From Octopus sinensis (taxonomy: Eukaryota), in assembly GCF_006345805.1 (NCBI RefSeq), contig NC_043005.1:35898001-35962000 (forward strand): DNA of 64,000 nucleotides, given 5' to 3'. A program made the translations under genes and the position numbers. Within the stretch, counting starts at the first letter, position 1. Every line of letters starts with the position of its first letter. The notes under the pieces are model-generated. The model saw only the letters and a program-made list of their open reading frames with translations. It made no database searches and was not told the origin of the DNA. Below are positions 8,074 to 63,610 of this stretch, in pieces.

Positions 8074-8270
8074 TTAATTCAAACATGAACAAAGAGAGAA
8101 CACAACAACGTGAGGACGTGGAACAAGTATAGTGTTATTGGACGTTCAGAAAGGGAAAGAAAGAAGGAGGATTTAATGTTTCGAGCAGAGCTCTTCATCA
8201 GAAACATAGAAAAAGAATGGTCCAAGGAAGGGAAGACAGAGAAAGAAAATCACCAACGATACACACGCGA
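8074..8270 (-). mobile_element. Penelope-like pLTR-derived short element in (TA)n, carrying a minimal hammerhead
   Basis: Flanked by (TA)n on both sides, homologous to 29221-29430, hammerhead core at 8171-8205. Confidence 0.7.
8171..8205 (-). ncRNA. Minimal type I hammerhead ribozyme, cleavage region mutated
   Basis: Minus strand GUUU CUGAUGA A GAGC UCU GCUC GAAA CAUU AAAU; ACGU has decayed to ACAU relative to the 29.3 kb copy. Confidence 0.6.
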
Positions 8271-8289
8271 TATATATATTATATAAGAG

Positions 8290-8660
8290 CAGTTATGGCA
8301 GTGTGGTAAGAAGCTTGCTTCCCAACAACATGGTTCCAGGTTCAGCCCCCTGCATGGCAACTTGAGCAAGTGTCTTCAGCTCTAGCCTTGGGCCAACTAA
8401 AGCCTTGTGAGTGAATGTGGTAGACAGAAACTGAAAGAAGCCCGTCATAAGTATATAATTATGTGTATTGGTTTTTGTTCCTACTATTGCTTGAAAATCA
8501 ATGCTGGTGTGTTTACATCCCAAGTAACTTAACAGTTTGGCAAAAATGACCGATAGAATAAGCACTAAGCTTACAACGAATAAGTCCAGGGGTTGATTTC
8601 TTTGACTAAAATCCTTTAAGGTAGCACTACAACATGCCCGCAGTCAAATGAATAAAAGAA
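8290..8660 (+). mobile_element. Family A SINE, decayed
   Basis: A/B boxes, CORE-like segment and tail match 1550-1945. Confidence 0.8.
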
Positions 8661-10364
8661 TATATCAGAAAATTGAGATAAACGTTTAAGTTCCCTACAT
8701 ACATTTCACCATTGCAGTTATTTGTAACACAGCATTGGATGTTCCAAGTACATTCGGATGTGTAATAGCAATGGATCATCAAAGGAACATTTCATTGCAT
8801 TCAAAACATGCAATGCTGAGTCTCAAGTAATTGCAAAGAACAAATAGTTTATCCTAATTTCCTCCTACATAATACGTTCTGTATATCCTAACTAGTAATA
8901 CTGCCAGGTAAATTGGTAGACTAACCAGTATACTGGATAATAGTGATAATCCACCTGGAACCTCTTACTGATCTATTAGTCATACATCTAACAGTGCACA
9001 AGTGTTAAAAGTCTCCATAGTTTTGTGTGTGAATGTGAACAGAAAATAATGACACAGGAAGTCAGGTCATAAAAGTTTTTAAAAAAATAATTAAAAGATA
9101 TGTATTTTATTGAAATATAAATAATTGAGTTTAAGGGTGAGGTTATAAGTTTATATATATGACTGAGAAATATTCTATACAACTACTACAACTATAGTAG
9201 TAGTAGTAGTAGTAGTAGTTATTGTTGTATAAAACATGTCACTTAATAGTATGACTTATTTACAAGGAATGATAGCCGCAATTTATGTAGTGGCAATACA
9301 AGTAGGTGGGTAAAGACTCACAATATCTACTTGTTTATCTTATCTGTCCCCCACTTTATATCTGTATATATCTATAAGTGTGTGAATGTGTACACACTCA
9401 GACACACACACACACACACATATATATATGTATGTATGTATCATTATCATCATCGTCATTTAACATCCATGTTCCATGCTAGCATGGGTGAGATGGTACA
9501 AGAGCTGGCCAGACTGAAGCCTGCACTAGACGTCTGTGACTGTTTTGGCAGAATTTTTACAGCTGGATGCCCTTCCTAATACTAAACACTCAGCAGAGTG
9601 GACTTAGTGCTTTTTATGTGGCACAAGCACAAGGGAGATCATGTAATATATATATATATATATATATATATATGTACTAGACTATCTGTGACCCATTGGG
9701 TCACCAGGAAAGTTTGAGTTTCCCACCAATGGAGTTTTGTTTTGTGGGGGTATTTTTTCTATTCCAAGTTATTTTACATGATATCAAGGAATGTGACATC
9801 GAAATCACATGTAAATGGCTCCTTTCCCTACCTAAAAAAGATTTGGCTGCTCTTTCTTGCATGCCCTGCTACCACGAAACAAGTATTTTGACCCTTTATC
9901 TCAAACAGCCGTTACGTGGTAGCATGGCGGGCTAGAAATAGCAGGCAAATCTTTGGAAGTGAGATACGTTGAATGCACTCAAAGAAACCTATGGAAAAAA
10001 AACTATTTCACACTGAGGTTACAAACGGGTGTTTTACAAAATATTTATTATATTTTTACAGTCATTTTCACTTAAAAATATTTTGCCCATCATAATGTGT
10101 CTAATGGAAAGGTTAGAGTTTCTTCCCTTTCAGGGTTAAGTTATTTTTGGAGTATTTTCCTGTTGAACACTCTTTTGGGTATTTATATCCGCAAAACCCA
10201 GAAAATCTCAATAATCACTAGTCTGATTTACACAAACTTGTTTTATTCCGTTTGTATTCACATTTCAGGGGCAATTTACTTTCAAAGTATCTTCCCATTA
10301 TATGCCAATTTAGCTGTGTAATATTGCAAGCAAGCAAGCAAGATTGAAGTTCACTTTTAATGTA

Positions 10365-60085: not shown

Positions 60086-60140
60086 TCGACCAAAGATAGC
60101 CTGGAGCCAAACAAGAACTTAAATTAAGCAACGGTATTTA

Positions 60141-60372
60141 GGCGGCGAGCTGGCAGAAACGTTAGCACGCCGGGCGAAATGCGTAGCCGTATTTCGTCTG
60201 TCGTTAACGTTCTGAGTTCAAATTCCGCCGAGGTCGACTTTGCCTTTCATCCTTTCGGGGTCGATAAATTAAGTACCAGTTACGTACTGGGGTCGATGTA
60301 ATCGACCTAATACCTATGTCTGTCCTTGTTTGTCCCCTCTGTCTTTAGCCCCTTGTGGGTAATAAAGAAATA
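60141..60372 (+). mobile_element. Family B SINE, young, TSD ggtattta
   Basis: TSD at 60133-60140 and 60373-60380; CpGs intact. Confidence 0.9.
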
Positions 60373-63317
60373 GGTATTTAGTTTTTTTCTCTCCCTACGT
60401 CCTAGTTTCAAATCCAACCAGGGGGTCTGTTTTTGGCTTTTATACCTTGAAATCGTTGAAATAAGTACCATACAATGGGATCGATCTGATCGAATATATC
60501 CCCTTCCCTAAAATTTTGTGGTTATGATGTGACAATCAGTCATTCAGTTTGTAAGTGTTTACATATATAAGTAACAGCCCTGCATCTATGAATGATAATT
60601 GAAGTAGTAAATGCAAATCGTGTGTTTAAGGGAGGGTGTTTGATAAAAAGACAATATCTTTCCAACGAAATCAGCAGACGACAACAAACACAACCCACTT
60701 ACTTGATATCAATCAATTCTCCGCTATTCACATGACACCCACTTTCGATTTCAATTAATTAATTACTTTCTGTTTACAGCCAAATGATATACTAGAATCT
60801 CTGATAGCCACACGATACCGTTTTTCAAAGGTATAAAACTCCATACTCAATATCGCATAGCATCACATTATAACAGCTTTTTCGCCTATCAATAGAATAC
60901 ATATGTGGTTTCTCCCACGTCTATTCTCATCATCATCATTATCATCACCATTATTATTATTATTATTATTATTATTATTATTATTATTATTATTATTATT
61001 ACTATTATTAGCAGCAGCAGCAGCAGTAGTAGTAGTAGTAGTAGTATTTATTCTTCTATTTAATATTGATTGAAAACATTAAATTTTAGTTTTGCTTGTT
61101 ATTCTATATTGCTGTCAATTGTATATGTAAACAGGGATACAAAGAAAAAAGGATGGAAAGAAGGACAGAAACAATGTGTGTGTGTGTGAATGAGTGGGTG
61201 AGTGAGTGAGTGAGTGAGAGAGAGAGAGAGAGAGAGAGAAAATAATCTATTCAGTTTGTCTTTGCTGATTACATTAAATGTACTATGTTTAATCAAGGGA
61301 GTCACTAATGATTATAGTTCATAATTCTTCTGCAAATGCTATTAGTTAGATACAAACACACACACAAAAATGACAGCCATGTTTGCCACTGTCACATCAC
61401 AATATGTCCCGCTTGCTGTATCAAATGGCCTACACTCAGAAATGTGTGTTTTTGTCTTCCTGTTGGTGTCTCTACATCATCTACAATTAAGTAAGACTCA
61501 TTCTATTGCGGAGTTCCATTCACATTTGTCGCTTAGGATTAAAGCTGGTCGTTGTTAAGGAACCTCTCACGAGGACGCTGACGTGGACAATAGCATCGTT
61601 CCTCTTGGTTGAAATGCATTACAATACTAGAAAAGGGAAACCATTACCATAGTGTTATAACAATAACAATGATAATGTGTACAGATTATGTCCTTTATTG
61701 CAATCCCTTCTCCATTATCTAGATACATCGACATAGCTACTTTTACGACTGTGATGACGGCCTACAAAATCAATATTATTAGGACCTTTTTCATTAGCAT
61801 GAAGGCGTCCATTCCCAACACAATAACGAACATGGCCACCTACAAAGACAACACGTCACCACACGCTTCAAAATGATTAGGAAATTGCAATCGATCTTAC
61901 CACCTCTCCTCCGCAAACACTAAATAGTTTTAAAGCTGATCGGAGGATCATCTATTGAGAGATTTTGTCTGAATTTCCGAGACAGTGAATTACTATTGTT
62001 ATACGCTGATATATTCGGACTTGTGCCCTCATCTTGGTTGTTACAGTCACGACAATTCGGTTGTTGTACTTTCTGGCCGTCTTCAGGAGTCAGTCGAATT
62101 TAATAATTGTAGAAGATCAACAACCGCAGGTAAGACACGAGCAGAGTAAAGATTCCAAGAGAAAAGTATTATGGGGCAGAAGGACAGGTTAGAATGATTA
62201 GTAGGGAACAGGATACGCAATAAAGGTGAAGAGATGACTAGGTAAGGATGCCTGAATGCAGGGGTACGAGAATAGCTAAGTTCCAAGGAGCAAAGACCGA
62301 TAAATAATTGTTTAAGCTACATCTGAGATTAGGCAGAGCTGTATGTTTCACAAGTTCACTTCACAATAACTAAGTCCCATCGCGTGGCACCTTGGGCAAG
62401 TAAATTCTACCACAGTTTTGAATCCACTACAGCCTTGTGACAACATTTTGGTAGACAGAAACACTGTCAAAACCTGTCGGATTGACCGTTCCTGCAGTCG
62501 GGTGGTAGACACAACCAATTGTCCAGGTGAAACCCAACATACAGTCTTCAGATATTTACATAACGAAGTATCTAAATAAAGGACATCCGTGGCGAAAATT
62601 CCGATAGAAGAAAAGATGTCATTGTTAAGTCGTTTATATTTTAAGTTTTTCATGGTCTTAGTGGTATCTTTAGTGGCATCTACTATATAACAAGCATTCA
62701 GGCCATGTCTCCGGACCGATTATAACTTCCATTCCATTTCTTCTCACCGATTTTAGATGCTTTAAAACAAATCTCGAATGCTGTTCTTTCTTGTTTGACG
62801 AGACGATAAATGTACGTTAATAGAATATAACGGAGATCTAGCCTGTTAAAAACAATAAAAAGTAAATCGATCAACTAGAGTTTATTTTATGTTTAAATTA
62901 TAGTTTTGCAATAAAACTGTGATTTAAACATAAAAGTTTTACTTTCAATGTTGTGTTCCTGACATTTTAAGTTGTCAGACTAAATCCAAACTCTCATCAG
63001 CTCATAAACCTTCATACAAGATAAATATAATTATAAGTAAGATAAATATAATTATCAATACAGCTAAATATAAAACTACGACCTTCTCCACAGAACGGTG
63101 GGGTTATTATGGAAACCTTTTACATTACCATATATGTAAAGACTACGTACATAAATACATATTTATATGCATATATATATATATATATATATATATATAT
63201 ATATATATATATATATATATATATATATATATATGTATGTAGGTACGTACGTATGCACACACACACACACGCACTATATATATATATATATATATATATA
63301 TATATATATATATATAT

Positions 63318-63610
63318 ATTAATTAGAGACAAAACCACTATTATGCAAATCAAAGAAAGAAAGACTCAATCCAATACATAAAAAAATTTATATAAATTAA
63401 ATAAAATTAATTTTATTTAATTTATATAAAAATTTTTATGTATTGGATTAAGTCTTTCTTTGTTTGATTTGCATAATAGTGGTTTTGTCTCTAATTAATA
63501 TTAATATTAATATTAATATTATATTATATTTTACTATAAAATTGGATTCAATCCTAAATCTGATTTTTCCCTGTAAATTTGGATTTATTCCCTAATATTA
63601 TTATTATTAT
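63318..63610. mobile_element. ~180-bp near-perfect palindrome plus tail, between (TA)n tracts
   Basis: attaattagagacaaaaccactattatgcaaatcaaa...tttgatttgcataatagtggttttgtctctaattaat (63318-63499), essentially no spacer. Confidence 0.75.

What the first reader, a model, noticed from the sequence alone, without database searches (positions are those of the whole stretch)
8074..63610. Microsatellite-targeted, hammerhead-bearing fold-back retroelement system (Penelope-like pLTR / retrozyme type)
Seen: about 9 short non-coding elements (8.1, 25.2, 25.7, 28.6, 29.2, 32.1, 34.3, 41.9, 63.3 kb) from at least five sequence-distinct families all sit in (TA)n/(CA)n tracts. Most carry a type I hammerhead core with palindromic or near-palindromic stem III, followed by a T-rich tail running into the microsatellite. 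Five have an inverted partial copy of that tail. Established: Penelope-like elements carry minimal hammerheads in their pseudo-LTRs and leave inverted truncated copies, and protein-less hammerhead retrozymes exist in animals. Inference: octopus carries a dense, diverse, non-autonomous population of such elements, roughly one per 7 kb here, mobilised in trans. I cannot say whether these families are already annotated.
Basis: partly seen in the sequence, partly recalled or inferred. Interest (0 to 1): 0.85.

Follow-up and report, generated by a model that had tools for sequence, protein, structure and literature searches.

The report
Scrambled hammerhead ribozyme in animal retroelements
The nine short repeats sit in TA runs and are likely all cut-off ends of Penelope-like mobile elements; one belongs to a protein-less family of thousands of copies predicted to fold into a self-cutting hammerhead RNA with its three parts in a scrambled order, a form we found reported only from environmental RNA samples.

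Summary
All nine elements are real (8 families; 1,100-3,100 genome candidates each for seven). Six carry a type I hammerhead, two carry none, and five have an inverted copy. Family A is the pLTR of an autonomous RT+GIY-YIG Penelope-like element (14 of 20 endonuclease loci; four with two pLTRs), and C and D link to such ORFs at one locus each. That part is known PLE behaviour, and it is not a purely non-autonomous system. The surprise is the 25.2-kb element (family B), a non-coding ~845-nt unit found in partial tandems. It carries the hammerhead blocks in the non-circular order S-G-C. A pattern for its sister subfamilies matches 5,255 times against 17 for the control. Stems I and III covary (42 double changes against 15 shuffled), and 27 of 40 unselected copies fold against 1% for controls. 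Eckert 2023 reported type-SGC ribozymes only from metatranscriptomes. Cleavage, expression and circular RNA are untested. Stem II is weak, and the window copy itself has three stem-breaking G>A changes.

The parts
8074..8270 (-). Family A pLTR fragment, older copy (80% to the 29.2-kb copy); type I hammerhead core at 8201-8195, stem III palindrome broken
25160..25690 (+). Family B, 5'-truncated copy of a ~845-nt non-coding unit ending in (TA)n
25416..25476 (+). Predicted type-SGC hammerhead of family B. Block S 25416-25426 (U16.1 25420, C17 25421, predicted cut 25421/25422); block G 25432-25443 (GAAA 25436-39); block C 25460-25476 (CUGAAGA 25465-71, extra A, stem II strand). This copy has private G>A at 25419, 25424 and 25463 that break stems III and I
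25700..25856 (-). Family C pLTR fragment; type I hammerhead with CUGUGGA core at 25829 (17 of 19 family copies share it)
28570..28933 (.). Family D fold-back: arms 28570-28691 and 28770-28890 plus a ~40-nt extension; no hammerhead seen; a decayed RT+GIY-YIG ORF lies upstream at L214
29222..29430 (-). Family A pLTR fragment; type I hammerhead core at 29351 (CTGATGA here, CCGACGA in 24 of 29 relatives)
32067..32649 (-). Family E fragment with a long-stem-II type I hammerhead (core 32373-32367) and an inverted piece at 32587-32649
34290..34862 (+). Family F, ~532-nt non-coding unit seen in partial tandems; type I hammerhead core CCGATGA at 34528; inverted piece 34302-34392
41932..42092 (.). Family G fold-back: hammerhead on + at 42031-42069, long T-rich arm on -; the inversion point lies in stem I
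63319..63607 (.). Family H fold-back of the tail only (no hammerhead in this copy), with a 3' extension to 63607

Best explanation
The nine repeats are 5'-truncated, TA-flanked ends of eight repeat families, three of them joined elsewhere to Penelope-like RT-endonuclease genes and the rest likely moved by such enzymes, and family B is a protein-less unit predicted to self-cleave through a non-circularly permuted (type-SGC) hammerhead. Shown: the link of A (strong) and of C and D (one locus each) to RT+GIY-YIG ORFs; the closed non-coding units of B (~845 nt) and F (~532 nt); block order S-G-C with covarying stems in B and its sister subfamilies. Inferred: read-through transcripts of partial tandems are cut by the ribozyme into unit-length RNA, possibly circularised. 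A Neptune-type RT/endonuclease would then nick (TA)n DNA and prime at the AU-rich end of the unit. Early stops would give short ends, running past one unit would give partial tandems, and template fold-back would give inverted copies. [quoted passage not shown]
For: A: 14 of 20 loci fetched from 150 endonuclease matches have a sense A-type pLTR 1.3-3.0 kb after the stop. Four have pLTR-ORF-pLTR, two of them with an unbroken 1,008-codon frame. That protein resembles RT/HTH_animal/GIY-YIG clusters at 0.97-0.98 and aligns with a Pfam RVT_1+GIY-YIG ORF at E 1e-50. B: 30 of 30 hits to the 5' body run straight into the ribozyme region with no PLE protein match. SGC: a G-block/C-block pattern that excludes B1 matches 2,660+2,595 times against 9+8 reversed. 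In 22 sequence-aligned copies 89% of cells pair, with 42 double changes against 15.0+/-3.6 (0 of 500 shuffles), and slid partners give 40-57%. A second clade of 15 gives 90% and 6 against 1.6. Over 37 copies, A15.1-U16.1, H17 and G10.1-C11.1 hold in 37 of 37. In 40 further unselected matches, 27 have a fitting S block against 78 of 8,000 random placements. 0 of 14 metagenome matches to a similar pattern fold. TA at 5' junctions: A 14 of 26, B 11 of 15, background 5.6%.
Against: No cleavage or expression data. Stem II is 4 bp with two G-U pairs (duplex energy about 0) and barely varies within a clade. The stem I-II interaction helix, required in Eckert's SGC-3, is weak here and shows no covariation (70% paired). 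The count of pairs with a double change (8 against 6.6; 113 of 500) and the number of pair types (15 against 19.4) were not above shuffles, and copies are related, which inflates cell counts. A TTCGR motif upstream (59 of 80 intact motifs) could pair over the GAAA block. The nested minimum-energy fold is not the ribozyme. Upstream partial copies start at unit positions 304-782 with no pile-up at the predicted cut (556). No autonomous parent was found for B, E, F, G or H. TA at 5' junctions is modest for C (5 of 18) and E (4 of 22).
Confidence: 0.75

Rival explanations
1. The S-G-C motif is a conserved structure but does not cleave in cis as a monomer. It would act as a dimer or in trans between tandem units, or serve as a binding signal for the PLE protein.
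For: Weak stem II and weak interaction helix. A competing upstream TTCGR motif in 59 of 80. No 5' ends piled at the cut site. PLE minimal hammerheads have low in vitro activity (PMC4209133). 8 of 9 Xenopus retrozyme dimers did not cleave.
Against: All core positions and the NUH triplet are kept across very divergent subfamilies. Block order and the short stem I-II linker match validated monomeric type-SGC ribozymes.
Confidence: 0.15
2. One reading: all nine are members of dedicated non-autonomous, retrozyme-like families mobilised in trans.
For: B and F are closed non-coding units. No parent was found for E, G or H. Many A copies start at nearly the same point (19 of 26 at reference positions 290-299).
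Against: A-type pLTRs flank RT+GIY-YIG ORFs at up to 94% identity to the window copy. C and D join such ORFs. The shared A start is favoured by the 206-nt query that selected those copies.
Confidence: 0.07
3. The S-G-C reading is an artefact of aligning decayed repeats, and the motif is a relic of tandem type I hammerheads.
For: Copies are related by descent; my structure was first read from these sequences; 13 of 40 unselected matches lack a fitting S block.
Against: The S block was not part of the search pattern, yet it pairs with both other blocks and changes in step across at least six stem variants. By eye, most failures are copies truncated or deleted inside block S.
Confidence: 0.03

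Closest known systems
Neptune-type EN+ Penelope-like elements and their pLTR hammerheads (Cervera & de la Pena 2014 PMC4209133; Craig 2021 PMC8557442)
   Same: RT plus C-terminal GIY-YIG with a CX4CX2C linker, pLTRs, 5' truncation, inverted truncated copies, end extensions, microsatellite bias, type I hammerheads with a palindromic stem III (families A, C; partly E-H).
   Different: Family A's common core is CCGACGA and C's is CUGUGGA. D shows no hammerhead. Clade placement was not tested by a tree. None of the passages read describes octopus hammerheads or an S-G-C motif.
Metazoan non-LTR retrozymes (PMC7761336; Li 2026 bioRxiv 10.64898/2026.07.22.740005)
   Same: Non-coding units with a hammerhead, in monomers and short tandems, proposed to be moved by PLEs (families B and F).
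   Different: Known ones use type I hammerheads; B uses S-G-C. B units are 760-845 nt and mostly 1-2 units long. Circular RNA is not shown here.
Type-SGC hammerhead ribozymes, HRIMA-1 and variants (Eckert 2023 PMC10085705)
   Same: Block order S-G-C, all core nucleotides, three crossing stems, a short linker from stem I to stem II.
   Different: Those came from metatranscriptomes, and the paper says none was found in genomes of known organisms. Here the motif is genomic, in thousands of copies of an animal retroelement, with the PLE-type extra nucleotide after A9, a G-U-rich stem II and an unproven interaction helix.

Membership tests
EN+ Penelope-like element (families A, C, D) | End sequence joined to an ORF with RT and C-terminal GIY-YIG | tested here: met
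   A: 14 of 20 loci; C: L177 upstream matches the endonuclease end of L071, 85% over 171 nt; D: L214 only
EN+ Penelope-like element (families B, E, F, G, H) | End sequence joined to an ORF with RT and C-terminal GIY-YIG | tested here: not met
   No linked ORF in the loci examined. The samples were small for E, G and H, so this lowers 'is a pLTR of a coding PLE', not 'moves like one'
EN+ Penelope-like element | pLTRs as direct repeats around the ORF | tested here: met
   L258, L260, L265, L266 for family A
EN+ Penelope-like element | 5' truncation and inverted truncated copies | tested here: met
   Inverted upstream copy: E 7/24, F 9/19, D 13/19, G 36/39 (the D and G queries favoured it); A 0/29, B 0/24, C 0/19; an inverted A copy caps the coding element at L072
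Neptune clade | CX2-5CxxC linker before the endonuclease | tested here: met
   Seen in the L265 and L081 proteins
Neptune clade | RT phylogeny | not tested
   No reference PLE proteins were on hand
Non-LTR retrozyme (B, F) | Non-coding unit in tandem with a hammerhead per unit | tested here: met
   B about 845 nt, sister units 760-789 nt; F 531-533 nt; mostly partial tandems
Non-LTR retrozyme (B) | Type I hammerhead | tested here: not met
   B has S-G-C order; F has type I
Non-LTR retrozyme (B, F) | Self-cleavage and circular RNA | not testable with these tools
   Only assembled contigs were offered
Type-SGC hammerhead | Blocks in order S, G, C with core CUGAnGA, GAAA, UH | tested here: met
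   the G and C cores were fixed by the pattern in most rows, block S was not
Type-SGC hammerhead | Covariation in stems I and III | tested here: met
   5 of 6 and 3 of 5 pairs with double changes in alignment A2; more across clades
Type-SGC hammerhead | Stem II | tested here: inconclusive
   94% and 87% paired but no double change within clades; across clades only the fourth pair changes on both sides; low stability
Type-SGC hammerhead | Extra helix joining the stem I and stem II flanks | tested here: inconclusive
   70% paired, no covariation; duplex -0.5 to -7.7 kcal/mol
Type-SGC hammerhead | Site-specific cleavage | not testable with these tools
   needs an in vitro assay

The most novel reading that the evidence does not exclude
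An animal genome carries thousands of active, non-circularly permuted (type-SGC) hammerhead ribozymes in at least six subfamilies of a non-autonomous Penelope-dependent retrozyme. The motif arose by block rearrangement from a PLE type I hammerhead, independently of the metatranscriptome HRIMA-1 RNAs: the first genomic, animal home of this topology and a traceable origin for it.
Probability: 0.65. Interest if true: 0.85.

Novelty: new variant of a known kind. Interest (0 to 1): 0.74.

Why it matters
Non-circular RNA permutations were described in 2023. The S-G-C form was reported from metatranscriptome contigs with no known host and so no known job. A high-copy genomic family in an animal gives it a host, a likely role (processing a retroelement RNA), and thousands of natural variants for structure-function work. 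It also offers a route to trace how a ribozyme's blocks are reordered. Standard type I/II/III descriptors and Rfam miss the motif, so some PLEs and retrozymes scored as 'lacking a hammerhead' may carry permuted ones. The other eight elements are ordinary PLE-like ends.

Tried and rejected
Rfam on the window and on L105 found no hammerhead. The genome search with H found nothing, probably because of low complexity; H relatives came only from other loci. A relaxed type I scan allowing U3-A8 gave 25 hits in 400 kb against 4-12 in shuffles and was too noisy for a density. I first read L071 as the parent of H; its ORF belongs with C, and H is a later insert. B copies lying behind the common Neptune family (L085, L095) follow that family's own end and were rejected as its pLTR. 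L391 likewise has its own pLTR; L385 has a sense RT fragment 3.7 kb upstream, beyond the 751 nt it shares with relatives, and was not inspected further. The shuffle control of the SGC descriptor crashed; the reversed-pattern and random-placement controls stand in for it. Six of 30 pattern loci (L351, L352, L355, L361, L365, L366) were left out of the alignments because block S is truncated or replaced. Two rows (L007, L108) need a longer insertion before stem II. The joint MAFFT alignment misplaced block S between clades, so the clades were aligned apart. The exact SGC pattern had 0 matches in the 400-kb sample, where about 1 is expected. Pfam gave no hit for L265 and PDB none. No RNA holder listed; the contigs laid cannot show starts, strand or level. 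Three look-ups of earlier findings returned nothing. Lunse 2017 on PLE hammerhead variants was not held and not seen; Dfam and Repbase could not be searched.
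Full report
Observation. All nine elements are at the stated places and fall into eight families, A (twice) to H. A strict type I hammerhead descriptor finds four motifs against 0.18 per shuffle. E and F have type I folds with long stem II, seen in family copies. D and H have no hammerhead in the window. 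D, E, F, G and H carry an inverted partial copy. Own-genome searches give 3,112 (A), 3,032 (B), 2,950 (C), 1,528 (D), 1,104 (E), 2,665 (F) and 1,122 (G) candidates, 40 scored each, and none for H. In 40 evenly spaced 10-kb stretches these families give 18 hits, one per 22 kb. Nine of the ten with an intact 3' end abut (TA)3, against 6.5% background. 5' junctions have TA in 14 of 26 A, 11 of 15 B, 5 of 18 C and 4 of 22 E copies, against 5.6%. This suggests insertion into existing runs, but empty sites were not seen.

Parents. The genome holds thousands of GIY-YIG candidates, some in ~780-codon frames. Walking upstream of A led to RT and endonuclease frames joined to the A end by a CA-rich spacer. 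I took 20 of 150 matches to that endonuclease: 13 top-ranked and 7 with long frames. Fourteen have a sense A-type pLTR downstream. L258 and L260 have two pLTRs up to 94% identical to the window copy. L265 and L266, a sister subfamily at 72-75%, have two pLTRs and an unbroken 1,008-codon frame. The protein resembles RT/HTH_animal/GIY-YIG clusters and has a CX4CX2C linker, as Neptune elements do. C joins an endonuclease end at L177 and D follows a decayed RT-endonuclease at L214, one locus each. The common A core is CCGACGA (24 of 29), so the textbook-looking CTGATGA in the window copies is likely CpG decay. F is a ~532-nt non-coding unit in partial tandems. No parent was found for E, G or H. 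Truncation, inverted copies, end extensions and TA bias are described PLE traits (PMC8557442, passages), as are these hammerheads (PMC4209133, passages and Discussion). The link of retrozymes to PLEs is also in print (bioRxiv 10.64898/2026.07.22.740005, parts 1-3 of 5; PMC7761336, passages).

Family B. All 30 hits to its 5' body run into the 3' region with no PLE protein match. The unit is about 845 nt, and about 22 of 30 are preceded by a truncated copy of the same end. Aligning divergent relatives showed the hammerhead blocks in the order: cleavage site with stem III' and I strands; then stem II'-GAAA-III; then stem I'-CUGAnGA-A-II. All three helices cross. This is type SGC of Eckert et al. 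2023 (PMC10085705; parts 2-5 of 8 read; passages). They validated cleavage in vitro, noted a linker of about 3 nt between stems I and II, and wrote that none of their RNAs but one GCS candidate occurred in genomes of known organisms. The one supplement file held as text has no 'Octopus', 'Mollusca', 'Metazoa' or 'Eukaryota'; alignment files outside it may bear on this.

Tests of the fold. A pattern for blocks G and C that excludes B1 matches 5,255 times against 17 read backwards. I aligned 24 of its first 30 loci (six lack block S) plus 13 relatives from other loci, by sequence alone, in two clades. Clade Y (22 rows): 89% of cells pair, 42 double changes against 15.0+/-3.6, slid partners 40-57%. 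The number of covarying pairs (8 against 6.6) and of pair types did not beat shuffles. Clade X (15 rows): 90%, 6 against 1.6. Over 37 rows the A15.1-U16.1 pair, H17 and G10.1-C11.1 never fail; strands pair 0.90-0.94 with their own partner and 0.65-0.71 with the other clade. In 40 further matches taken without regard to block S, 27 fit, against 1% of random placements (21 of 40 under the narrower offsets). None of 14 metagenome matches fits. Sister units repeat at 760-789 nt, mostly end in TA about 75-200 nt after the motif, and showed no linked ORF in 70 loci. The window copy has G>A at 25419, 25424 and 25463. Contigs from four runs under three organism labels read G there, so this copy is likely dead and the family is shared among relatives.

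Caveats. Stem II is short and G-U-rich. The stem I-II interaction helix is unproven, and an upstream TTCGR motif in 59 of 80 intact motifs could mask GAAA. Partial copies do not start at the predicted cut. That fits a circular or uncut template but gives no sign of cleavage. Nothing here shows expression.

Mechanism. Shown: anatomy, copy numbers, ORF links for A, C and D, closed units for B and F, and covariation. Inferred: ribozyme cleavage of read-through RNA, possible circularisation, and target-primed reverse transcription by Neptune-type enzymes at (TA)n. The S-G-C motif keeps the extra nucleotide after A9 and G10.1-C11.1, which PMC4209133 lists as PLE-hammerhead marks, so derivation from a PLE type I motif is likely.

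Novelty. Searches for octopus with hammerhead or Penelope and for permuted or type-SGC hammerheads found no report of this topology in an animal genome. A 2026 paper cites Eckert only in passing (PMC13725137, passages). and one search were further listings. Lunse 2017, Dfam and Repbase were not seen.

Noticed in passing
L078:2700-2745, L095, L391:3580-3620 (oriented as): The abundant ~780-codon Neptune-type family has its own pLTR hammerhead with a U3-A8 core (TTGATAA; TTGAAAA in a relative) instead of C3-G8, a compensatory core variant.
   Followed up: no
window 25829 (-), family C: The core CUGUGGA (A6U) is family-wide, 17 of 19 copies, so it is not decay.
   Followed up: partly
window 42031-42069; L051-L070, L154-L173: In family G the inversion point repeatedly falls in hammerhead stem I, so the long arm starts at the predicted cleavage site. 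This suggests stem I serves as the fold-back primer; the query favoured such copies.
   Followed up: partly
window 25407-25413 and relatives: A TTCGR/TCGAAGA motif just before block S (59 of 80 intact motifs) resembles a relic C block and can pair with the CTTCGAA of block G; it may be a switch or a trace of the rearrangement.
   Followed up: partly
L073 (rc 308, 873, 8833), L277:17 and 490, L071 (rc 1293, 2070), L293, L303, L305, L308, L309: Further type I hammerhead families, some in tandem units of 473-565 nt, look like additional retrozymes.
   Followed up: no
L078, L085, L095, L103, L026, L404: Different families insert into each other's TA tails and build clusters of ends.
   Followed up: partly
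window 11724-11925 and 13286-13487: Identical 202-nt copies 1,562 nt apart, part of a local tandem duplication of about 1.56 kb.
   Followed up: no
window-wide (e.g. 41298-41478, 54683-54913, 11825-12069): Two SINE-like families give 19 and 14 hits; some form inverted pairs around TA runs, which caused spurious Rfam miRNA matches.
   Followed up: no
window 25392-25472 in run X5: One contig across the permuted ribozyme has depth 2,687, about ten times most neighbouring pieces; whether the run is RNA is only a guess.
   Followed up: no
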